Virus record (IMG/VR): IMGVR_UViG_3300029619_000251
Direction: 5' to 3' (one strand)
Length of the DNA stretch: 30,347 bases
DNA from: a virus
Lineage: Duplodnaviria > Heunggongvirae > Uroviricota > Caudoviricetes
Below are positions 3,238 through 10,692 of this stretch, in pieces. Each line of letters opens with the position of its first letter. Within the stretch, counting starts at the first letter, position 1. The translations under genes and the position numbers were made by a program. Below the pieces are notes generated by a model, which was not told the DNA's origin, made no database searches, and saw only the letters and a program-made list of their open reading frames with translations.

Positions 3238-3509
3238 GTATTCGTATTGAAATTGGCGAACGTTATGTCGTTACCAGTGACAGCTTTCAGTTTATTCTCC
3301 ACGAGAAAAAGAGAGCGGAAAGCGGTAAAAACGCCGGTCAGGAATGGCTGGCGGTGGTTGGTTATTACCCGAAATTAAGCCAGCTCGTTTCAGGCCTGAT
3401 GCATCACGATATTCTGACCGGAAGCGCAAAGTCTTTTGCTGATTTAAACGTGCAGGTTGAGCAACTCAGCAGGCGTTGTTCAGAGGCTTTTGGCTCATAT
3501 GGCCGTTAA
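3234..3509 (+). CDS. hypothetical early protein (P2 orf83 position)
   Basis: 91-aa ORF with GGAGAA upstream; overlaps the start of A. Confidence 0.5.
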   Translation: MSIRIEIGERYVVTSDSFQFILHEKKRAESGKNAGQEWLAVVGYYPKLSQLVSGLMHHDILTGSAKSFADLNVQVEQLSRRCSEAFGSYGR

Positions 3510-5775
3510 AGCCTCCGGGCGTTTTGTCCCTCCGTCAGCATTTGCCGCAGGCACCGGTAAGATGTTTACCGGTGCTTATGCATGGAACGCGCCACGCGAG
3601 GCCGTCGGGCGCGAAAGACCCCTTACACGTGACGAGATGCGTCAGATGCAAGGTGTTTTATCCACGATTAACCGCCTGCCTTACTTTTTGCGCTCGCTGT
3701 TTACTTCACGCTATGACTACATCCGGCGCAATAAAAGCCCGGTGCACGGGTTTTATTTCCTCACATCCACTTTTCAGCGTCGTTTATGGCCGCGCATTGA
3801 GCGTGTGAATCAGCGCCATGAAATGAACACCGACGCGTCGTTGCTGTTTCTGGCAGAGCGTGACCACTATGCGCGCCTGCCGGGAATGAATGACAAGGAG
3901 CTGAAAAAGTTTGCCGCCCGTATCTCATCGCAGCTTTTCATGATGTATGAGGAACTCAGCGATGCCTGGGTGGATGCACATGGCGAAAAAGAATCGCTGT
4001 TTACGGATGAGGCGCAGGCTCACCTCTATGGTCATGTTGCTGGCGCTGCACGTGCTTTCAATATTTCCCCGCTTTACTGGAAAAAATACCGTAAAGGACA
4101 GATGACCACGAGGCAGGCATATTCTGCCATTGCCCGTCTGTTTAACGATGAGTGGTGGACTCATCAGCTCAAAGGCCAGCGTATGCGCTGGCATGAGGCG
4201 TTACTGATTGCTGTCGGGGAGGTGAATAAAGACCGTTCTCCTTATGCCAGTAAACATGCCATTCGTGATGTGCGTGCACGCCGCCAGGCAAATCTGGAAT
4301 TTCTTAAATCGTGTGACCTTGAAAACAGGGAAACCGGCGAGCGTATCGACCTTATCAGTAAGGTGATGGGCAGTATTTCTAATCCTGAAATTCGCCGGAT
4401 GGAGCTGATGAACACCATTGCCGGTATTGAGCGTTACGCCGCTGCAGAGGGTGATGTGGGGATGTTTATCACGCTGACCGCGCCTTCAAAGTATCACCCG
4501 ACACGTCAGGTCGGAAAAGGCGAAAGTAAAACCGTCCAGCTAAATCACGGCTGGAACGATGAGGCATTTAATCCAAAGGATGCGCAGCGTTATCTCTGCC
4601 ATATCTGGAGCCTGATGCGCACGGCATTCAAAGATAATGATTTACAGGTCTACGGTTTGCGTGTCGTCGAGCCACACCACGACGGAACGCCGCACTGGCA
4701 TATGATGCTTTTTTGTAATCCACGCCAGCGTAACCAGATTATCGAAATCATGCGTCGCTATGCGCTCAAAGAGGATGGCGACGAAAGAGGAGCCGCGCGA
4801 AACCGTTTTCAGGCAAAACACCTTAACCAGGGCGGTGCTGCGGGGTATATCGCGAAATACATCTCAAAAAACATCGATGGCTATGCACTGGATGGTCAGC
4901 TCGATAACGATACCGGCAGACCGCTGAAAGACACTGCTGCGGCTGTTACCGCATGGGCGTCAACGTGGCGCATCCCACAATTTAAAACGGTTGGTCTGCC
5001 GACAATGGGGGCTTACCGTGAACTACGCAAATTGCCTCGCGGCGTCAGCATTGCTGATGAGTTTGACGAACGCGTCGAGGCTGCACGCGCCGCCGCAGAC
5101 AGTGGTGATTTTGCGTTGTATATCAGCGCGCAGGGTGGGGCAAATGTTCCGCGCGATTGTCAGACTGTCAGGGTTGCCCGTAGTCCGTCGGATGAAGTTA
5201 ACGAGTACGAGGAAGAAGTCGAGAGAGTGGTCGGCATTTACGCGCCGCATCTCGGCGCGCGTCATATTCATATCACCAGAACGACGGACTGGCGCATTGT
5301 TCCGAAAGTTCCGGTCGTTGAGCCTTTGACTTTAAAAAGCGGCATCGCCGCGCCTCGGAGTCCTGTCAATAACTGTGGAAAGCTCACCGGTAGTGATGCT
5401 TCGTTACCGGCTCCCACACCTTCTGAGCACGCCGCCGCAGTGCTTAATCTGGTTGATGACGGTGTTATCGAATGGAATGACCAGGAGGTCGTGAGGGCGC
5501 TCAGGGGCGCATTAAAACACGACCTGAGAACACCAAACCGTCAGCAAAGAAGCGGAAGCCCGTTAAAACCGCATGAAATAGCGCCATCGGCCAGACTGAC
5601 CCGGTCGGAACGAACGCAAATTACCCGTATCCGCGTTGACCTTGCTCAGAACGGTATCAGGCCGCAGCGATGGGAGATTGAGGCGCTGGCGCGTGGGGCA
5701 ACCGTACATTATGACGGGAAAAAATTCAGATATCCGGTCGCTGATGAGTGGCCGGGGTTCTCGTTACCCATTTGA
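3499..5775 (+). CDS. A: replication initiation endonuclease A (rolling-circle Rep, HUH family)
   Basis: About 758 aa from the ATG at 3499 (MAVKASGRF...); the track ORF starts at a TTG at 3457. HUH motif (TPHWHMMLF) and tyrosine motif (GYIAKYISK). Last gene of the early operon, as in P2. Confidence 0.9.
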   Translation: MAVKASGRFVPPSAFAAGTGKMFTGAYAWNAPREAVGRERPLTRDEMRQMQGVLSTINRLPYFLRSLFTSRYDYIRRNKSPVHGFYFLTSTFQRRLWPRIERVNQRHEMNTDASLLFLAERDHYARLPGMNDKELKKFAARISSQLFMMYEELSDAWVDAHGEKESLFTDEAQAHLYGHVAGAARAFNISPLYWKKYRKGQMTTRQAYSAIARLFNDEWWTHQLKGQRMRWHEALLIAVGEVNKDRSPYASKHAIRDVRARRQANLEFLKSCDLENRETGERIDLISKVMGSISNPEIRRMELMNTIAGIERYAAAEGDVGMFITLTAPSKYHPTRQVGKGESKTVQLNHGWNDEAFNPKDAQRYLCHIWSLMRTAFKDNDLQVYGLRVVEPHHDGTPHWHMMLFCNPRQRNQIIEIMRRYALKEDGDERGAARNRFQAKHLNQGGAAGYIAKYISKNIDGYALDGQLDNDTGRPLKDTAAAVTAWASTWRIPQFKTVGLPTMGAYRELRKLPRGVSIADEFDERVEAARAAADSGDFALYISAQGGANVPRDCQTVRVARSPSDEVNEYEEEVERVVGIYAPHLGARHIHITRTTDWRIVPKVPVVEPLTLKSGIAAPRSPVNNCGKLTGSDASLPAPTPSEHAAAVLNLVDDGVIEWNDQEVVRALRGALKHDLRTPNRQQRSGSPLKPHEIAPSARLTRSERTQITRIRVDLAQNGIRPQRWEIEALARGATVHYDGKKFRYPVADEWPGFSLPI

Positions 5776-5990
5776 GTAAAAACACAACGTAATTTGATAT
5801 GGCATTGAATGGCTTATGCGGAGCAGTTATGGGGCAGCAGAAGGTCAATAGCATGCTGAATTAGAAGGCTAAATGCTATTGAGTGACTAGCATGTCGGTA
5901 AGGACAGCCGTTTGATCCGGGTCATAAAAGGCCATCCATTTAGTCTAATAAAATCATTGCGGGTAACCTTATGTCGACGCATAATTCGTC

Positions 5991-6005
5991 TTGAGCGAAG
6001 TCTTG
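5991..6005. repeat. 15-bp direct repeat TTGAGCGAAGTCTTG, copy 1
   Basis: Exact 15-mer repeated at 6255-6269; the two copies bracket the terminator and the small ORF. Confidence 0.6.
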
Positions 6006-6035
6006 TCAGTCTTTCATCGTATTGATGATGGGCGC

Positions 6036-6066
6036 AAAAAAACCACCCTGGCAGGTGGTTTTTTTG
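6036..6066. terminator. bidirectional Rho-independent terminator
   Basis: AAAAAAACCACC-CTGGCA-GGTGGTTTTTTT: a hairpin with an A-tract on one side and a T-tract on the other. Downstream of A on the + strand and of the small ORF on the - strand. Confidence 0.6.
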
Positions 6067-6077
6067 TTTGAAGCATA

Positions 6078-6191
6078 TTAAAGCATAATGCTGACATTGA
6101 TATTACTGACGTTTACTGACAAACCACTCGGACTACCGTTTGGATAGCCAAAGAGGGCCAGAACGAGAATGCAGTAATAGCATTTCTTCAT
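6078..6191 (-). CDS. 37-aa hydrophobic small protein (hypothetical; candidate small membrane peptide)
   Basis: MKKCYYCILVLALFGYPNGSPSGLSVNVSNINVSIML, with AGGAGG 4 nt upstream of the ATG and the bidirectional terminator immediately after the stop. The 88-aa extension listed in the ORF track has no RBS. Confidence 0.3.
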   Translation of the reverse strand: MKKCYYCILVLALFGYPNGSPSGLSVNVSNINVSIML

Positions 6192-6254
6192 ATTGCCTCC
6201 TGTAAGTAGAGGGCAACTTCCACCGGTATATGCGCTTCTTAGGTGGAATGACTT

Positions 6255-6269
6255 TTGAGCGAAGTCTTG
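6255..6269. repeat. 15-bp direct repeat TTGAGCGAAGTCTTG, copy 2
   Basis: Exact copy of 5991-6005. Confidence 0.6.
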
Positions 6270-6669
6270 CCCTGAAATAATGCTCTGTTTAAACGCAAAG
6301 TGATTTGGCATATCACCGAACAGAGAACCGGAAAAACACAACATATAGTATGTCGTTGTTTCTAGACATACATTCTATGTTGTGTAACAAGGGCTTTGCA
6401 TTAAACATGTTTGAGATTTTATTGATGTAGCTCAAAGTAAAAAACAGAGACTACGGATGATAAGGTCTTGAAAGCAATGTAAATTTTTTAAAGTTGCCAA
6501 TTGCTTAAAAATGTACAGTTGCGGTATGGCGTACTTAAAAAGCTATGCATGCAACAAGTGAATGTTTTTGCATGCGTTGGGGATGTCCGTTCAGGCTGCG
6601 TGCGGTCAGGACTGGTGCGGATCCATAGTATCTATGCAACTGCATTAAAACCGCCCCGTGAAGCGGGCG

Positions 6670-6688
6670 GGCGAGGCGGGGAAAGCAC
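6670..6688. other. cos site: 19-nt cohesive-end sequence GGCGAGGCGGGGAAAGCAC (P2/186 type)
   Basis: Exact match to the P2 cohesive-end sequence as I recall it, at the expected place between gene A cargo and the Q terminator. Confidence 0.6.
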
Positions 6689-6830
6689 TGCGCGCTGGCG
6701 GTGGTGCTGATTTTATTTTTTCAGCGTCTGAGCGCGTCGTGATGGCGTTTAGATTGTTCGCCGGGGCGTTGGTGTGTCTGTGGGATGTTTTGTGCGGTGG
6801 TGAGCGTGTGAGGGCGTGATGGCGGGTTGT

Positions 6831-6852
6831 AAAAAAGCCGCCCGCAGGCGGC
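6831..6852 (-). terminator. terminator of the Q-P operon
   Basis: GCCGCC-CGCA-GGCGGC hairpin followed, on the minus strand, by a U-tract (the A6 at 6831-6836), just downstream of the Q stop. Confidence 0.5.
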
Positions 6853-6857
6853 GATGT

Positions 6858-7892
6858 TCAGCCGTTGTCAGTGTCCAGTGAGTAGTTTTTAAAGCGGATG
6901 ACCTCCTGGCCGAGCCAGCCGTTTATTTCCCGAATCCTGTCCTGTAGCGGTATAAGCTCATTGCGGACAAAGACCTTTGCCACTTTCTCAATATCGCCCA
7001 GTGATCCGACGTTCTCCGGCTTGCCCCCCATCAACTGAAAGGGGATGCGGTGCGCGTCCAGCAGGTCAGCGGCGCTGGCTTTTTTGATATTAAAAAAATC
7101 GTCCTTCGTTGCCACTTCACTGAGCGGGATAATTTTAATGCCGTCGGCTTTCCCCTGTGGGGCATAGAGAAACAGATTTTTAAAGTTATTGCGGCCTTTC
7201 GACTTCACCATGTTTTCGCGAAGCATTTCGATATCGTTGCGGTCCTGCACGGCATCGGTGACGTACATGATGTATCCGGCATGAGCGCCATTTTCGTAAT
7301 ACTTTCGGCGGAACAACGTGGCCGACTCATTCAGCCAGGCAGAGTTAAGGGCGCTGAGATATTCCGGCAGACCGTACAGCTCCTGATTAATATCCGGCTC
7401 CAGCAGGTGAAATACGGAGCCGGGCGTGAAAGGTGTCGGCTCGTTGAAGGACGGCACCCACCAGTAAACATCCTCCTCCACCCCACGGCGGGTATATTTT
7501 GCCGGTGAGGTTTCCAGTCTGATGACCTTACCGGTGGTGCTGTAACGCTTTTCCAGAAATGCATTACCGAATACCAGAAAATCCAGCACAAAGCGGCTGA
7601 AATCCTGCTGGGAAAGCCACGGGTGCGGGATAAATGTCGAGGCCAGAATATTGCGTTTGACGTAAATCGGTGAGCTGTGATGCACGGCAGCACGCAGGCT
7701 TTTTGCCAGACCGGTAAAGCTGACTGGTGGCTCATACCATCTGCCGTTACTGATGCACTCGACGTAATCCAGAATGTCACGGCGGTCGAGTACCGGCACC
7801 GGCTCACCAAAGGTGAATGCCTCCATTTTCGGGGCGCTGGCGGTCATTTTTTTTGCCGCAGGTTGCGGTGTTTTCCCTTTTTTCTTGCTCAT
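6858..7892 (-). CDS. Q: portal protein (capsid portal vertex)
   Basis: 344-aa ORF; its ATG overlaps the P stop (ATGA). Position and length match P2 gpQ as recalled. Confidence 0.9.
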   Translation of the reverse strand: MSKKKGKTPQPAAKKMTASAPKMEAFTFGEPVPVLDRRDILDYVECISNGRWYEPPVSFTGLAKSLRAAVHHSSPIYVKRNILASTFIPHPWLSQQDFSRFVLDFLVFGNAFLEKRYSTTGKVIRLETSPAKYTRRGVEEDVYWWVPSFNEPTPFTPGSVFHLLEPDINQELYGLPEYLSALNSAWLNESATLFRRKYYENGAHAGYIMYVTDAVQDRNDIEMLRENMVKSKGRNNFKNLFLYAPQGKADGIKIIPLSEVATKDDFFNIKKASAADLLDAHRIPFQLMGGKPENVGSLGDIEKVAKVFVRNELIPLQDRIREINGWLGQEVIRFKNYSLDTDNG

Positions 7893-9664
7893 CAGTAAAA
7901 CTCCAGAATGGTGGATGTCAGCGGAGTGCTGATACCGGCGGTGAGTGGCTCATTTAACAGGGCGTGCATGGTCGCCCAGGCGAGGTCGGCGTGGCTGGCT
8001 TCCTCGCTGCGGCTGGCCTCATAGGTGGCGCTGCGTCCGCTGCTGGTCATGGTCTTGCGGATAGCCATAAACGAGCTGGTGATGTCGGTGGCGCTGACGT
8101 CATATTCCAGACAGCCACGACGGATAACGTCTTTTGCCTTGAGCACCATTGCGGTTTTCATTTCCGGCGTGTAGCGGATATCGCGCGCGGCGGGATAGAA
8201 CGAGCGCACGAGCTGGAACACGCCGACACCGAGGCCGGTGGCATCAATTCCGATGTATTCGACGTTGTATTTTTCGGTGAGTTTGCGGATGGATTCCGCC
8301 TGTGTGGCAAAGTCCATGCCTTTCCACTGGTGACGCTCAAGTATTCTGAATTTGCCACCGGCCACCACCGGCGGTGCCAGCACCACGCATCCGGCACTGT
8401 CGCCACGGTGTGACGGGTCGTAACCAATCCATACCGGGCGGGAGCCGAACGGATTCGCGGCAAACGGCGCATAGTCTTCCCATTCTTCCAGCGTGTCGAC
8501 CATGCAGCGTTGCAGCTCCTCGAACGGGAACACCGATGCCTTGTCGTCAACAAATTCACACATGAACAGGTTTTTAAAATCGTCGGCGCTGTTTTCACGT
8601 TTGAGCTGCTCAATGTCGAACAGCGTGCAGCCGCCTTTCAGGGCATCCTCAATGGTGACAATCTGCCGCCACTGGCCGTCCGCACAGAGAAGACCTCCGG
8701 CAAGGGCGTTATGACTGACGTCGATTTCCACGCGTTCGGCGGCGCTGGCGCGTCCCCGGTTGAACAGTTCACCCGACCAGAACGGGTAGGCGTCGTGCGC
8801 CAGCGTGGACGGGGTGGAGAAATAGGTCGAGCGCAGGTGACTCTGTGAGGCCATACCTGATGCCACCTTACGCAGTACCTGAAAATTCGGGATCCAGAAA
8901 ATCTCGTCGACGTACAGGTCGCCGTTATGGCTCTGTGCGGTGTTGGAGTTGGTGCCGAGAAAAATCAGTTTTGCGCCGTTATTGCCCAGGACAATCGGGT
9001 CACCGGTCAGGTCAACGTCAACCAGACGGGCAAAGGCGATGATGTATTCGCGGAACACATACGCCTGCGTTTTACTGGCCGACAGAAAAATCTGGTTATG
9101 ACCGGTTTTCAGGGCGCGCAGCAGCGCCTCGCGGGAAAAATAAAACGTCGCGCCAATCTGGCGGGATTTCAGGATATCGCGGATGCGGTGCTCAAGCCCG
9201 GCGCGATACCAGTGCAACTGATAGTCGAAAGACTGCTCAAAGAAAATCTGCTCCAGCTTTTCGATGGCCTCGTCACTGAAAAAATTCTTTTTCGGTTTGC
9301 GACGCCCGCCTTTGTTGCGGTTAGCGACGTTCGGATTAAGGTCTGCCTCGTTGCCGGTCTGGCTGTAGCGGTTTACCCGTGCCAGTCGTTCAATCTGGCG
9401 TCCGAGCAGGTCAATTTCCTTGAAGTCACCGCCGGTTTTCTGCGGTTTGATAATGAGCTGGGTCAGCCGCGCTTCCAGACTCATTTCGACACGGCTGATG
9501 GGGGCAACGCTGTCCCAGCCGTCGCGCTGTTTCCAGCTCTGCACCGTCGGGCGTTTCATCTGCAACATGGCGGCAATCTGCGGCACGGAAAACCCCTGCC
9601 AGTACAGCAGCGCCGCCTGACGACGCGGGTCGTGTAAAAGAGTGGTGTCTGTGGTGATGGTCAT
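7892..9664 (-). CDS. P: terminase large subunit (ATPase/nuclease)
   Basis: 590 aa from the ATG at 9664 (MTITTDTT...), with GAGGT 5 nt upstream; the track ORF extends to a TTG at 9694. Transcribed divergently from O, as in P2. Confidence 0.9.
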   Translation of the reverse strand: MTITTDTTLLHDPRRQAALLYWQGFSVPQIAAMLQMKRPTVQSWKQRDGWDSVAPISRVEMSLEARLTQLIIKPQKTGGDFKEIDLLGRQIERLARVNRYSQTGNEADLNPNVANRNKGGRRKPKKNFFSDEAIEKLEQIFFEQSFDYQLHWYRAGLEHRIRDILKSRQIGATFYFSREALLRALKTGHNQIFLSASKTQAYVFREYIIAFARLVDVDLTGDPIVLGNNGAKLIFLGTNSNTAQSHNGDLYVDEIFWIPNFQVLRKVASGMASQSHLRSTYFSTPSTLAHDAYPFWSGELFNRGRASAAERVEIDVSHNALAGGLLCADGQWRQIVTIEDALKGGCTLFDIEQLKRENSADDFKNLFMCEFVDDKASVFPFEELQRCMVDTLEEWEDYAPFAANPFGSRPVWIGYDPSHRGDSAGCVVLAPPVVAGGKFRILERHQWKGMDFATQAESIRKLTEKYNVEYIGIDATGLGVGVFQLVRSFYPAARDIRYTPEMKTAMVLKAKDVIRRGCLEYDVSATDITSSFMAIRKTMTSSGRSATYEASRSEEASHADLAWATMHALLNEPLTAGISTPLTSTILEFY

Positions 9665-9837
9665 GAATACCTCGCCGTGATGAATACACGGCAAGGCTAC
9701 TGAGTCGCGCCCCGCGATTCGCTAAGGTGCTGTTGTGTCAGTGATAAGCCATCCGGGACTGATGGCGGAGGATGCGCATCGTCGGGAAACTGATGCCGAC
9801 ATGTGACTCCTCTACTCACTATTCAGGACTCCTGACA
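9665..9837. promoter_or_regulatory. divergent late-promoter region between P and O
   Basis: 173-bp intergenic region between divergently transcribed P and O. Called from position only; I did not find a clean TGT-N12-ACA activator box by eye. Confidence 0.35.
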
Positions 9838-10692
9838 ATGGCAAAAAAAGTCTCAAAATTCTTTCGTATCGGCGTTGAGGGTGACACCTGTGACGGGCGT
9901 GTCATCAGTGCGCAGGATATTCAGGAAATGGCCGAAACCTTTGACCCGCGAGTCTATGGTTGCCGCATTAACCTGGAACATCTGCGCGGCATCCTGCCTG
10001 ACGGTATTTTTAAGCGTTATGGCGATGTGGCCGAACTGAAGGCCGAAAAGATTGACGATGATTCGGCGCTGAAAGGCAAATGGGCGCTGTTTGCGAAAAT
10101 CACCCCGACCGATGACCTTATCGCGATGAACAAGGCCGCGCAGAAGGTCTACACCTCAATGGAAATTCAGCCGAACTTTGCCAACACCGGCAAATGTTAT
10201 CTGGTGGGGCTGGCCGTCACCGATGACCCGGCAAGCCTCGGTACGGAATACCTGGAATTCTGCCGCACGGCAAAACACAACCCTCTGAACCGCTTCAAAT
10301 TAAGCCCTGAAAACCTGATTTCAGTGGCAACGCCCGTTGAGCTGGAATTTGAAGACCTGCCTGAAACCGTGTTCACCGCCCTGACCGAAAAGGTGAAATC
10401 CATTTTTGGCCGCAAACAGGCCAGCGATGACGCCCGTCTGAATGACGTGCATGAAGCGGTGACCGCTGTCGCTGAACATGTGCAGGAAAAACTGAGCGCC
10501 ACTGAGCAGCGCCTCGCTGAGATGGAAACCGCCTTTTCCGCACTTAAGCAGGATGTGACTGACAGGGCGGATGAAACCAGCCAGGCATTCACCCGCCTGA
10601 AAAACAGTCTCGACCACACCGAAAGTCTGACCCAGCAGCGCCGCAGCAAGGCCACCGGTGGTGGCGGTGACGCCCTGATGACGAACTGCTGA
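9838..10692 (+). CDS. O: capsid scaffolding protein
   Basis: 284 aa from the ATG at 9838 (MAKKVSKFF...); acidic, with coiled-coil-like C-terminal half. Precedes the major capsid gene. Confidence 0.85.
   Translation: MAKKVSKFFRIGVEGDTCDGRVISAQDIQEMAETFDPRVYGCRINLEHLRGILPDGIFKRYGDVAELKAEKIDDDSALKGKWALFAKITPTDDLIAMNKAAQKVYTSMEIQPNFANTGKCYLVGLAVTDDPASLGTEYLEFCRTAKHNPLNRFKLSPENLISVATPVELEFEDLPETVFTALTEKVKSIFGRKQASDDARLNDVHEAVTAVAEHVQEKLSATEQRLAEMETAFSALKQDVTDRADETSQAFTRLKNSLDHTESLTQQRRSKATGGGGDALMTNC

What the first reader, a model, noticed from the sequence alone, without database searches (positions are those of the whole stretch)
5776..6669. Minimal cargo island in the A-cos hotspot: 37-codon hydrophobic peptide gene, bidirectional terminator and flanking 15-bp direct repeats
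In P2 the region between gene A and cos carries the tin and old exclusion genes, and this slot is a recognised defence hotspot in P2-like phages. Here it is only about 0.9 kb with no large ORF. What it does contain is a strongly RBS-led 37-codon ORF on the minus strand (6078-6191; MKKCYYCILVLALFGYPNGSPSGLSVNVSNINVSIML) that ends at a bidirectional terminator (6036-6066). The pair is bracketed by an exact 15-bp direct repeat, TTGAGCGAAGTCTTG (5991-6005 and 6255-6269). The repeats suggest a small module inserted or exchanged by recombination. The peptide has the size and hydrophobic N-terminus seen in type I toxins and small membrane proteins, so a small toxin/antisense-RNA pair or a small-protein exclusion function is possible. 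The remaining 6290-6660 is AT-rich and non-coding.
Basis: partly seen in the sequence, partly recalled or inferred. Interest (0 to 1): 0.55.

Follow-up and report, generated by a model that had tools for sequence, protein, structure and literature searches.

The report
Antisense-RNA-controlled small-protein cassette in P2 prophage
The "empty" gap between the replication gene and the cos site of this P2-like prophage holds a compact, unannotated gene pair: a conserved 37-residue exported or membrane peptide and a convergent small RNA predicted to silence it, the layout of a type I toxin-antitoxin system; the same cassette also sits in filamentous prophages and hundreds of Klebsiella plasmids.

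Summary
The 15-bp repeats, however, are not insertion scars. They lie inside a ~550-bp mobile cassette (window ~5912-6486) that recurs in P2-like prophages, inovirus prophages and 423 plasmids, mostly conjugative Klebsiella plasmids.

The cassette has two convergent genes that share one bidirectional terminator:
- **Minus strand:** a ~330-nt mRNA with a structured 5' UTR and the 37-codon ORF. The ORF is under purifying selection (median dN/dS 0.23; 14 peptide variants of 37 aa).
- **Plus strand:** a predicted ~75-nt sRNA with its own conserved promoter. Its 5' end is repeat copy 1.

Because the two repeat copies are transcribed in opposite directions, the sRNA 5' end can pair over 14-19 bp with the mRNA 5' UTR. 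This pairing co-varies across lineages. All nine one-sided differences between the copies give G·U wobbles.

This is the architecture of the par/Fst locus of the Gram-positive plasmid pAD1. The peptide is unrelated to Fst, and there is no Rfam, Pfam, NCBIfam or PADLOC match.

The best reading is a new type I toxin-antitoxin-like family. Transcription, toxicity and biological role are untested. The stretch 6535-6669 is ordinary P2 cos-flanking backbone.

The parts
5957..5985 (+). Predicted sRNA promoter: -35 TTGCGG (5957-5962), 17-nt spacer, -10 CATAAT (5980-5985), with an A/T-rich stretch TAATAAAA upstream.
   Evidence: Read directly from the sequence. CATAAT is invariant, and TTGCG[GA]/TTGCCT is conserved in every family member, including inovirus and plasmid copies. 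Sequence invariance begins 8 nt after the -10 box, at GAGC, which fits a +1 there. The generic promoter scan did not flag it in the window, because the -35 matches only 3 of 6.
5993..6067 (+). Predicted ~75-nt sRNA (candidate antitoxin): single-stranded 5' seed, stem-loop SL1, then terminator hairpin and U-run.
   Evidence: 18 sequence variants all fold into the same seed-SL1-terminator layout. The ends are inferred from the promoter and terminator and have not been mapped experimentally.
5991..6005 (+). Direct repeat copy 1, which forms the 5' seed of the sRNA (GAGCGAAGUCUUG...).
   Evidence: Exact 15-mer. Predicted to pair with the mRNA site over 14-19 bp, at -25.6 to -34.2 kcal/mol, in 15 family variants. 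Four pairs carry compensatory double changes, and all nine one-sided changes are G·U.
6009..6033 (+). sRNA stem-loop SL1 (GUCU.UCAUC / GAUGA.GGGC).
   Evidence: The sequence varies but the hairpin is kept: 11 of 13 variants fold at -8.1 to -12.6 kcal/mol, with z-scores of -1.8 to -4.5. The U·G pairs would be mismatches on the opposite strand, so the structure is specific to the plus strand.
6035..6066 (.). Shared bidirectional intrinsic terminator CAAAAAAACCACC-CTGGCA-GGTGGTTTTTTTG. It also ends the gpA (early) operon.
   Evidence: The sequence is identical in family members whose peptides are only 24-60% identical; only one loop base differs in the Citrobacter and Enterobacter copies.
6078..6191 (-). 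37-codon ORF (candidate toxin): MKK, a 13-residue hydrophobic core, GYP, a GSPS segment, then a 15-residue C-terminus that alternates polar and hydrophobic residues.
   Evidence: An exhaustive HMMER search found homologues of 37-38 aa at 56-69% identity. There are 14 distinct 37-aa peptides, plus 38- and 39-aa variants, with no frameshifts. Median dN/dS is 0.225, and variable sites by codon position number 22/13/33. Databases carry it only as 'hypothetical protein' (ECW_m2278 in E. coli W).
6196..6201 (-). Shine-Dalgarno sequence AGGAGG.
   Evidence: It is conserved as GGAGG, GGAGA or GGTGG across the family. In the consensus fold it pairs with an upstream CCCU/CCCC stretch, forming an anti-SD helix (helix 6).
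6218..6248 (-). 5' UTR hairpin (UUCCACC...GGUGGAA) with a conserved loop containing AAGCGCA.
   Evidence: Compensatory changes CCACC/GGTGG to CCGCC/GGCGG occur in P2-like relatives. Four pairs of this helix show double changes across the family.
6255..6269 (-). Direct repeat copy 2, which is the sRNA target site in the mRNA 5' UTR (CAAGACUUCGCUCAA). It lies 64 nt upstream of the start codon.
   Evidence: Apart from the sRNA gene's own complement, it is the best duplex partner for the seed anywhere in the 30-kb window.
6283..6325 (-). Nested 5' UTR helices upstream of the target site: CUCUGUU/AACAGAG enclosing GGUGAU/AUCACU.
   Evidence: RNAalifold consensus with 5 compensatory pairs, plus an invariant G·U pair that exists only on the ORF-sense strand. 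Their presence implies that the mRNA starts upstream of repeat 2.
6372..6400 (-). Predicted mRNA promoter: -10 TAGAAT (6377-6372), 17-nt spacer, -35-like TGCAAA (6400-6395). The inferred start is near 6365.
   Evidence: TA[GA]AAT and the block (T)TGATGCAAA are conserved in all contexts. This is inference only; the -35 is weak.
5912..6486 (.). Extent of the mobile cassette shared with non-P2 contexts.
   Evidence: blastn against inovirus, relaxase-adjacent and metagenome loci aligns 5912/5946 through 6443/6486 at 69-75% identity. Among plasmids, 388 of 423 matching records cover at least 80% of it.
6535..6688 (.). P2 backbone: the cos-flanking packaging region (6535-6669) and the 19-nt cohesive-end sequence (6670-6688). 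Not part of the cassette.
   Evidence: 6535-6669 matches the right end of linear P2-like phage genomes that lack the cassette, at 94-98% identity. The cos sequence is read directly.

Best explanation
The region carries an autonomous ~550-bp cassette built like a type I toxin-antitoxin locus of the par (pAD1) layout. Two convergent promoters drive two RNAs that share one bidirectional terminator.
- A ~330-nt minus-strand mRNA has a highly structured 5' UTR. Its Shine-Dalgarno sequence is paired with an upstream C-rich stretch. It encodes a 37-residue peptide.
- A ~75-nt plus-strand sRNA is also produced.

The 15-bp direct repeat is transcribed in opposite directions. As a result, the extreme 5' end of the sRNA is complementary to a site in the mRNA 5' UTR, 64 nt upstream of the start codon. 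The two terminator hairpins are also mutually complementary.

Proposed mechanism. While the element is present and transcribed, the sRNA pairs with the UTR and keeps the peptide untranslated. This could work by blocking a ribosome standby or activation site, or by triggering cleavage of the duplex. If sRNA supply stops, because the element is lost or an infecting phage shuts off host transcription, the mRNA is translated. The peptide then enters the inner membrane or periplasm through its signal-like N-terminus and arrests or kills the cell. That would stabilise the prophage or plasmid, or abort infection.

Shown by comparison: the coding status of the ORF, the conserved RNA structures on the stated strands, the co-varying intermolecular pairing, and the mobility of the cassette.

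Inferred: the transcript ends, repression by the sRNA, peptide export, toxicity, and the biological role.
For: 1. The ORF is a real gene. Homologues at 56-69% identity keep a length of 37-38 aa. Median dN/dS is 0.225 (range 0.06-0.42), and third codon positions vary most.
2. The whole layout is conserved in unrelated mobile elements. These are inovirus prophages beside secretin and Zot genes, loci beside a TraI-like relaxase in Leclercia, 423 plasmids of which 351 are typed conjugative and 394 are Klebsiella, and roughly 10% of E. coli genomes that carry a P2-like gpA (149 versus 1414 genomes).
3. The repeat behaves as an RNA-RNA helix.
  - Across the 18 tested pairs, 92% of cells are paired, against 28-42% when the register is slid.
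  - Four pairs show compensatory double changes, and the covariation score exceeds all 500 shuffles.
  - All nine one-sided differences are G·U or U·G; none is A·C.
  - The Leclercia, Salmonella-plasmid and Enterobacter lineage carries GGTAAGGCTTTGCTCA in both copies, where the window has GGCAAGACTTCGCTCA.
4. The sRNA has an invariant -10 box, and sequence invariance starts at the predicted +1. Its central hairpin changes sequence but keeps its structure.
5. The mRNA 5' UTR consensus has 31 pairs, 12 of them compensatory. 93.8% of cells are paired, against 40-50% when slid, and 0 of 500 shuffles reach the observed values. It includes an anti-SD helix and G·U pairs specific to the ORF strand.
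6. The architecture matches the published description of par: convergent promoters, a shared bidirectional terminator, direct repeats read in opposite directions, and an SD-sequestering stem (PMC7472228).
7. The cassette sits in a recognised hotspot for anti-phage cargo, between gpA and gpQ (PMC9122126).
Against: - There is no transcript, translation or toxicity evidence of any kind. Everything rests on comparative sequence analysis.
- Both promoters are only moderate matches to consensus in the window, and the generic scan did not report them.
- The compensatory changes in the seed helix come from few independent lineages, about 2-3. Two copies of a DNA repeat could in principle be homogenised by gene conversion.
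- The target lies 64 nt from the SD, so the means of repression is not evident from the sequence.
- The hydrophobic stretch is only ~13 residues. That resembles a Sec signal peptide more than the transmembrane helix typical of type I toxins.
- The peptide matches no known toxin family.
- The AlphaFold model is uninformative (pLDDT 55).
Confidence: 0.62

Rival explanations
1. This is an sRNA-regulated accessory gene (a moron) for a non-toxic small exported or membrane protein. The RNA layout is as described, but the peptide serves the lysogen directly, for example by superinfection exclusion, receptor masking or modulation of an envelope protein. The sRNA only tunes its level.
For: The N-terminus looks like a Sec signal peptide. 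It has a positively charged n-region, a ~13-residue hydrophobic h-region, nearly invariant G15-Y16-P17, and small residues at -3 and -1 (S-x-S) before residue 23. The C-terminal 15 residues alternate polar and hydrophobic residues and carry no charge, unlike Fst, Hok or TisB. No toxin family matches. TimP shows that a signal-bearing small protein can allow growth at its native expression level (PMC7667032).
Against: Tight multi-layer silencing (a sequestered SD plus a dedicated antisense RNA) and spread across plasmids, prophages and inoviruses as one self-contained pair are the hallmarks of addiction modules, not of ordinary accessory genes. In every complete locus examined the sRNA accompanies the ORF.
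Confidence: 0.22
2. The sRNA is mainly a trans-acting regulator of host or phage mRNAs, and its pairing with the neighbouring small-ORF mRNA is secondary.
For: The sRNA has the classic build of an Hfq-type regulator: a single-stranded 5' seed, a hairpin, and a terminator with a U-run. The seed is the most conserved part of the cassette.
Against: Within the 30-kb window the only strong partner of the seed is the adjacent UTR site. When the seed changes, the adjacent site changes with it. That is not expected if a fixed host target constrained the seed.
Confidence: 0.1
3. One reading: the 15-bp repeats are target-site duplications or recombination scars that bracket a small inserted module.
For: An exact 15-mer pair is very unlikely by chance, and the region is a known cargo hotspot.
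Against: Conservation extends well beyond both repeats in every context. The repeats lie inside the transcripts and co-vary with wobble-compatible differences. The same repeats are present wherever the cassette sits.
Confidence: 0.03
4. There is nothing functional here beyond the terminator of the early (gpA) operon; the ORF and the repeats are chance features of spacer DNA.
For: PGAP annotates no feature here in any E. coli genome.
Against: Purifying selection on the ORF, covariation in three separate RNA structures, and conservation across unrelated mobile elements.
Confidence: 0.02

Closest known systems
par locus (RNA I/Fst toxin and RNA II antitoxin) of Enterococcus faecalis plasmid pAD1 and its Gram-positive relatives
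   Same: Convergent promoters. One shared bidirectional intrinsic terminator whose two hairpins are mutually complementary. DNA direct repeats transcribed in opposite directions that make the 5' regions of the two RNAs complementary. An intramolecular stem that sequesters the SD. A ~33-37-residue peptide. Location on plasmids and prophages (PMC7472228).
   Different: - The peptide is unrelated. It lacks the PXXXG transmembrane motif and the charged C-terminal tail, and gives no Pfam hit.
- There is one repeat pair rather than DRa plus DRb.
- The target lies 64 nt upstream of the start codon rather than over the translation initiation region.
- The sRNA is ~75 nt, against ~40-65 nt.
- The hosts are Enterobacteriaceae. 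According to that review, the Gram-negative branch of the Fst/Ldr family uses a different regulatory arrangement.
TimP/TimR (ryfA, Rfam RF00126) of Salmonella and E. coli
   Same: A ~38-residue peptide with an N-terminal Sec-type signal sequence, repressed by a small RNA that pairs with the 5' UTR of its mRNA (PMC7667032).
   Different: TimR is divergent and upstream, not convergent with a shared terminator. There is no RF00126 match even at E = 10. TimP/TimR is chromosomal, not carried on mobile elements.
TisB/IstR-1, ZorO/OrzO and DinQ/AgrB of E. coli
   Same: A trans-type short complementarity of ~16-20 nt between an sRNA and a site far upstream in a long, structured and translationally inert toxin 5' UTR (my own knowledge of these systems; ZorO-OrzO: PMC3919570, abstract).
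   Different: Those sRNAs are divergently encoded. The toxins are single transmembrane helices without signal-like features. There is no sequence or Rfam similarity; OrzO-P scores 21 bits against a threshold of 60, driven by the terminator.
Hok/Sok of plasmid R1 and its homologues
   Same: A small-peptide and antisense-RNA addiction module on enterobacterial conjugative plasmids and prophages. Hok/Sok is also reported to exclude phage T4 (my own knowledge).
   Different: Sok overlaps the hok/mok 5' region in cis. There is no Hok_Gef Pfam match, and the transcript layout differs.
P2 tin and old exclusion genes, and other cargo of the gpA-gpQ hotspot
   Same: The same slot in the phage genome, with low G+C and variable content between related phages (PMC9122126).
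   Different: Those are protein systems of 1-5 kb. This is a 0.55-kb RNA and small-peptide unit that protein-based hotspot surveys would not see.

Membership tests
Type I toxin-antitoxin system (generic) | Small (<60 aa) hydrophobic peptide gene | tested here: met
   37 aa with a 13-residue hydrophobic core. Coding status is supported by dN/dS of 0.23 and conserved length.
Type I toxin-antitoxin system (generic) | Adjacent sRNA gene with complementarity to the toxin mRNA | tested here: met
   A conserved promoter, a seed, SL1 and a terminator are present. The predicted duplex is 14-19 bp and co-varies. The sRNA is predicted, not detected.
Type I toxin-antitoxin system (generic) | Peptide is toxic when overexpressed | not testable with these tools
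   Needs induction experiments.
Type I toxin-antitoxin system (generic) | sRNA represses toxin translation, and the antitoxin is less stable than the toxin mRNA | not testable with these tools
   Needs reporter fusions and RNA half-life measurements.
par/Fst (pAD1-type) loci | Convergent transcription ending at one shared bidirectional terminator | tested here: met
   Hairpin 6035-6066 with A7 and T7 runs. The ORF ends 11 nt from it on one side, and the sRNA body abuts it on the other.
par/Fst (pAD1-type) loci | Direct repeats transcribed in opposite directions that give complementarity between the 5' regions | tested here: met
   One repeat pair of 13-18 nt across the family, with covariation. 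par has two pairs.
par/Fst (pAD1-type) loci | Repeat pairing covers the translation initiation region of the toxin | tested here: not met
   The target 6255-6269 lies 64 nt upstream of the ATG at 6191.
par/Fst (pAD1-type) loci | Fst/Ldr-type toxin: transmembrane helix with a PXXXG motif and a charged C-terminal tail | tested here: not met
   The alignment of 12 peptides shows no such motif and an uncharged C-terminus. No Pfam or NCBIfam hit.
par/Fst (pAD1-type) loci | Intramolecular stem that sequesters the SD | tested here: inconclusive
   The consensus fold pairs CCC[UC] with GGAGG (4 pairs, 92% of cells paired), but there is no double compensatory change in this helix.
TimP/TimR (ryfA, RF00126) | Match to the Rfam ryfA model | tested here: not met
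   No RF00126 hit at the gathering threshold or at E <= 10.
TimP/TimR (ryfA, RF00126) | Divergently encoded sRNA upstream of the toxin gene | tested here: not met
   Here the sRNA is downstream and convergent.
Hok/Gef | Hok_Gef protein domain | tested here: not met
   No Pfam hit at E <= 10.
Known anti-phage defence systems (PADLOC) | Match to any PADLOC protein model | tested here: not met
   0 of 12 family members match.

The most novel reading that the evidence does not exclude
The peptide may not be a membrane-helix toxin at all. It may be a Sec-exported precursor whose signal peptide is cleaved after the conserved S-x-S at residues 20-22. That would release a 15-residue uncharged peptide rich in Asn and Ser with an alternating pattern, such as GLSVNVSNINVSIML or GWSVNVSHINVNISL. 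Such a peptide could act in the periplasm or outer membrane by beta-strand augmentation, for example on a beta-barrel protein, its assembly machinery or a phage receptor. This would be a new effector class for antisense-RNA-controlled addiction or exclusion modules, carried by P2-like phages, inoviruses and Klebsiella resistance plasmids.
Probability: 0.15. Interest if true: 0.8.

Novelty: new variant of a known kind. Interest (0 to 1): 0.6.

Why it matters
If confirmed, this would be a previously unnamed type I toxin-antitoxin family in Enterobacteriaceae. As far as I could find, it would also be the first with the par-type convergent, shared-terminator, direct-repeat architecture outside Gram-positive bacteria.

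It is common. It occurs in about one in ten E. coli genomes that carry a P2-like gpA, and in hundreds of large conjugative Klebsiella plasmids. It is unannotated in nearly all the records examined here; where the ORF is called at all, it is a 'hypothetical protein'.

It would show that apparently empty defence hotspots can hold RNA and small-peptide cargo that protein-based surveys miss. It would also add a candidate plasmid-stability or abortive-infection determinant to clinically important plasmids.

The natural seed variants (GGCAAGAC... versus GGTAAGGC...) are a ready-made specificity test.

Tried and rejected
- **Rfam:** the whole window at gathering thresholds gave no hits. Scanning 5776-6700 at E <= 10 gave only sub-threshold hits driven by the terminator, such as RNAI, Phe_leader and OrzO-P.
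- **Protein libraries:** Pfam, PHROGs, NCBIfam and PADLOC gave nothing. The only match was a meaningless PHROG hit at E = 0.34.
- The search for related loci and the search for homologous proteins rejected the 37-aa query as too short. I used a degenerate DNA pattern and the exhaustive HMMER search instead.
- **Terminator scan with a free loop:** in genome contigs this mostly returned unrelated generic terminators from many phyla. Only four Enterobacteriaceae loci were relevant.
- **RNAalifold on a MAFFT alignment of the sRNAs:** it failed to recover SL1, because the hairpin sequences cannot be aligned. Per-sequence folding with shuffle controls replaced it.
- **AlphaFold2:** The second gave pLDDT 55, so no fold search was attempted.
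- **Long-range RNAduplex of the first 40 nt of the sRNA against the whole mRNA:** not discriminating. Shuffled sequences reached similar energies through long internal loops. A local scan with the 16-nt seed was informative.
- **A proximal promoter (CATTAT at 6276-6271) for the mRNA:** considered and set aside. Its -35 is poor and it is not conserved in relatives. Conserved, co-varying helices also lie upstream of it.
- **Minus-strand promoter-like site CTGACA-17-AATTAT (6009-5981) from the scan:** not conserved in relatives.
- **LexA or CRP sites in the conserved upstream block:** checked by eye, and none fits.
- **Literature:** searches for the peptide, the seed sequence, locus tags and related topics found no prior description.
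Full report
**1. Setting**

The window is a P2-like prophage. The replication gene gpA occupies 3457-5775 (+). The P2 cohesive-end sequence GGCGAGGCGGGGAAAGCAC is at 6670-6688. The portal gene Q is at 6858-7892 (-) and the terminase gene P follows it. The finding therefore covers the whole gpA-to-cos interval. This is the left part of the gpA-gpQ hotspot that Rousset et al. showed to carry anti-phage cargo in P2-like phages (PMC9122126). G+C falls to 34-44% across 5776-6500, against 52-58% on either side.

**2. Checking the observation**

All three features exist as described.
- **ORF.** The 37-codon ORF is at 6078-6191 (-). AGGAGG lies 4 nt upstream of the ATG.
- **Terminator.** The hairpin has perfect 13-nt arms at 6035-6047 and 6054-6066, flanked by A7 and T7. 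It can terminate transcription on both strands.
- **Repeat.** The 15-mer TTGAGCGAAGTCTTG occurs exactly twice in 30 kb, even allowing two mismatches. Chance expectation is 0.08.

The 88-aa extension in the mechanical ORF list, which some database entries also call, is not conserved: relatives have stop codons upstream.

**3. The repeats are not module boundaries**

P2-like relatives at 86-90% identity align without a break from gpA through both repeats to about 6500. These include a P2 isolate (OU784750) and Salmonella phage MET_P1_103_31. Beyond 6500 they diverge into their own cargo ORFs.

In E. coli W the entire 894 bp is 99.6% identical. Additional cargo there (an AAA ATPase plus a hypothetical protein) lies on the other side of cos.

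The last 135 bp, 6535-6669, match the right end of linear P2-like phage genomes that carry other cargo, so they are cos-flanking backbone.

**4. The ORF is a real, conserved gene**

An exhaustive HMMER search of 1.8 billion representative proteins with the 37-aa peptide returned seven clusters. Several are 37-38-aa proteins at 56-69% identity.

Degenerate-pattern and terminator-pattern scans of viral, genome and metagenome collections added further members. Together they give 14 distinct 37-aa peptides, plus 38- and 39-aa variants, with no frameshifts.
- Median pairwise dN/dS is 0.225 (range 0.06-0.42).
- Variable sites by codon position number 22, 13 and 33.

The consensus reads M-[KN]-[KR]-x3-C-I-L-V-L-[AT]-L-[FI]-G-Y-P-x-G-S-[QP]-S-G-[WL]-S-[VI]-x-V-S-[NH]-I-x-V-x-I-x-L. 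It has three parts:
- two basic or polar residues at the start;
- a 13-residue hydrophobic core that ends in G-Y-P;
- a short segment with small residues at what would be positions -3 and -1 of a signal-peptidase site, followed by 15 uncharged residues that alternate polar and hydrophobic.

This looks more like a Sec signal peptide plus a short beta-type segment than a classic single-helix type I toxin. That reading is inference.

No Pfam, PHROG, NCBIfam or PADLOC family matches. Public records call it only 'hypothetical protein', for example ECW_m2278 of E. coli W. AlphaFold2 gave a low-confidence model (pLDDT 55) that I did not use.

**5. The cassette is mobile**

The distant homologues are not in P2-like phages.
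- Two sit in inovirus prophages beside secretin, Zot, DUF2523 and ssDNA-binding protein genes. One of these is in Kluyvera georgiana.
- The Leclercia copies lie next to a TraI-like relaxase.
- A blastn search of the plasmid collection finds the cassette in 423 plasmids. Of these, 394 are Klebsiella, 351 are typed as conjugative, and 388 cover at least 80% of the cassette. No annotated feature lies under any listed match.

Homology between the window and these non-P2 contexts spans 5912/5946 to 6443/6486. That span defines the mobile unit.

In E. coli, 149 of 5426 complete genomes carry it next to gpA. 1414 genomes carry a comparable gpA, so the proportion is roughly one in ten.

**6. Anatomy of the cassette**

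Aligning 16 representative family members shows the same order of elements everywhere. Read in the sense of the ORF, that order is:
- a conserved block ending in (T)TGATGCAAA, then 17 nt, then TA[GA]AAT. This is the promoter candidate; in the window the -10 is at 6377-6372;
- a variable segment that forms a 5' hairpin in each member;
- nested helices CUCUGUU/AACAGAG around GGUGAU/AUCACU (6283-6325);
- repeat copy 2 (6255-6269);
- a hairpin with a conserved AAGCGCA loop (6218-6248);
- a C-rich stretch facing the GGAGG Shine-Dalgarno sequence;
- the ORF;
- the terminator;
- a variable hairpin;
- repeat copy 1;
- on the opposite strand, an invariant CATAAT with TTGCG[GA] 17 nt upstream (5980-5985 and 5957-5962 in the window).

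The terminator is identical in stem and loop even between members whose peptides share only 24-60% identity. Invariance on the sRNA strand begins at GAGC, 8 nt after the -10 box, which is where transcription should start.

**7. The predicted sRNA**

From about 5993 to the U-run at 6060-6066, the plus strand would give a ~75-nt RNA. It has a single-stranded 5' seed, a central stem-loop SL1 (6009-6033) and the terminator hairpin.

All 18 sequence variants fold into this layout. SL1 differs in sequence between lineages, but in 11 of 13 variants it folds at -8.1 to -12.6 kcal/mol, with z-scores of -1.8 to -4.5 against dinucleotide shuffles. It contains U·G pairs that would be C·A mismatches on the other strand, so the structure belongs to the plus-strand transcript.

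A MAFFT/RNAalifold consensus could not capture SL1, because the stems cannot be aligned by sequence.

**8. The repeat is an intermolecular helix**

The two copies are read in opposite directions, so the sRNA 5' end is complementary to the UTR site. RNAduplex gives 14-19 bp and -25.6 to -34.2 kcal/mol in all 15 distinct combinations.

I tested the helix formally by concatenating each UTR site with its cognate sRNA 5' end.
- 92% of cells are paired, against 28-42% when the register is slid.
- Four pairs show changes on both sides.
- No shuffle of 500 reaches the observed covariation score.
- All nine one-sided differences are G·U or U·G; none is A·C. RNA pairing predicts this. Mere identity of two DNA copies does not.

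The Leclercia, Salmonella-plasmid and Enterobacter lineage carries GGTAAGGCTTTGCTCA at both positions, where the window has GGCAAGACTTCGCTCA.

Within the 30-kb window, the UTR site is the best partner of the seed apart from the sRNA gene's own complement.

Caveat: the double changes trace to only about two or three independent lineages.

**9. The mRNA leader**

RNAalifold on 13 diverse 5' UTRs predicts 31 pairs in six helices, 12 of them with compensatory changes.

The pair-count control gives 93.8% of cells paired, against 40-50% when slid. No shuffle of 500 reaches the observed values. Several invariant G·U pairs exist only on the ORF-sense strand.

Helices upstream of repeat 2 imply that the transcript starts at the distal TAGAAT promoter, giving a leader of about 170 nt. 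One helix pairs the SD with an upstream CCC[UC] stretch, and another partly occludes the target site. Long, structured, translationally inert leaders of this kind are typical of type I toxin mRNAs (my own knowledge of tisB, zorO, dinQ and hok).

**10. Comparison with known systems**

The organisation matches, point for point, the published description of the par locus of pAD1. That description lists convergent promoters, a shared bidirectional terminator that gives complementary hairpins, direct repeats transcribed in opposite directions that give a second region of complementarity, and an SD-sequestering stem (PMC7472228).

It fails two defining features of that family. The peptide is not Fst/Ldr-like, and the repeat pairing does not cover the translation initiation region. 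I therefore describe it as working like par, not as a member of the family.

TimP/TimR is the nearest analogue for a signal-sequence-bearing small toxin (PMC7667032). It has a divergent layout, and its Rfam model does not match here.

Literature searches by peptide sequence, seed sequence, locus tag and topic found no prior description.

**11. Mechanism proposed, and what is not shown**

The comparative evidence shows four things: a coding small ORF, conserved strand-specific RNA structures, a co-varying sRNA-UTR helix, and horizontal mobility as a unit.

Four things are inferred: the transcript ends; repression by the sRNA; toxicity and export of the peptide; and the benefit to the phage. Repression could work through occlusion of a standby or activation site or through RNase III cleavage, perhaps started by loop-loop contact of the complementary terminator hairpins. 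The sRNA loop CUGGCA contains a YUNR-type motif. The benefit could be post-segregational stabilisation or abortive infection when an invader shuts off transcription.

The sRNA lies downstream of gpA in the same orientation. Early-operon read-through would therefore also produce antitoxin-containing RNA. This is a testable oddity of the P2 placement.

The main rival is that the peptide is a non-toxic exported accessory protein under antisense control.

**12. Verdict**

The toxin/antisense idea is supported and can now be stated as a specific mechanism. The recombination-scar idea is rejected.

The cassette appears to be an unnamed, widespread type I toxin-antitoxin-like family with a par-type architecture in enterobacterial mobile elements: a new variant of a known kind.

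Noticed in passing
L003 (E. coli W, NC_017664) 3895-6220: In E. coli W the same 894-bp gpA-cos region is followed, after the cos sequence, by a 2.3-kb low-G+C insert between cos and the portal gene. The insert encodes an AAA family ATPase (477 aa) and an overlapping 190-aa hypothetical protein. Cargo can therefore sit on either side of cos. The pair looks like a two-gene defence system, but I did not identify it.
   Followed up: partly
L057 (Enterobacter MAG CAUQTV010000013) 4560-5800: Here the cassette is split. The sRNA with one copy of the terminator, and the toxin gene (MNRRHFLCVIVLAVISQLLTGQSNWLINVSQISISISV) with a second copy of the terminator, are separated by ~900 bp that encode a ~230-aa membrane-like protein. 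The seed and the target still match (GAGCAAAGCCTTACCA).
   Followed up: partly
L115 (metagenome Ga0268256_1001162) ~3311-3870 and 6209-6791: Two copies of the cassette lie ~2.9 kb apart on one contig. Their sRNA-side repeat copies differ slightly (GGGCAAGAC versus TGACAAGAC).
   Followed up: no
L129 (K. pneumoniae plasmid pGN-2, NZ_CP019161) 5001-10583: On this IncFIB/IncHI1B plasmid the cassette lies ~1.6 kb from a gene cluster annotated as nucleotidyltransferase, ThiF-family adenylyltransferase, Mov34/MPN protein and 3'-5' exonuclease. That composition resembles CBASS, which hints at a defence-island neighbourhood.
   Followed up: no
window 5778-5791 and 6332-6345; 6336-6345 with 6376-6385: AAAAACACAACGTA sits right after the gpA stop codon and recurs as AAAAACACAACATA at 6332. 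The second copy is one arm of a 10-bp perfect inverted repeat (ACACAACATA/TATGTTGTGT) that straddles the predicted -10 of the mRNA promoter and, on the minus strand, is followed by a T-run. It could be an operator or an upstream terminator. The repeat arms are only partly conserved outside the P2-like lineage.
   Followed up: partly
window 5845-5882: A perfect 10-bp inverted repeat, TCAATAGCAT...ATGCTATTGA, lies in the 136-bp stretch between gpA and the cassette. In the phage collection this stretch (5776-5911) matched only records that also carry the cassette.
   Followed up: no
window 6837-6852 (-) and 6651-6670 (-): A strong terminator-like hairpin, GCCGCCTGCGGGCGGC followed by T6, sits just after the portal gene. 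A second G+C-rich hairpin with a T-run abuts the cos cleavage site.
   Followed up: no
E. coli hits H36 and H56 (NZ_CP026085.1, NZ_CM135829.1): Two assemblies labelled 'DH5alpha' carry this P2-like prophage region at 99.6% identity, as do E. coli W and its derivative LY180. A K-12 derivative should not carry it, so the strain labels may be wrong.
   Followed up: no
window 4776-6669 versus NZ_LR134247.1 (NCTC9040): The 894-bp region is 100% identical to NCTC9040, but the adjacent 1 kb of gpA is only 97% identical. That indicates mosaic exchange at or near the end of gpA.
   Followed up: no
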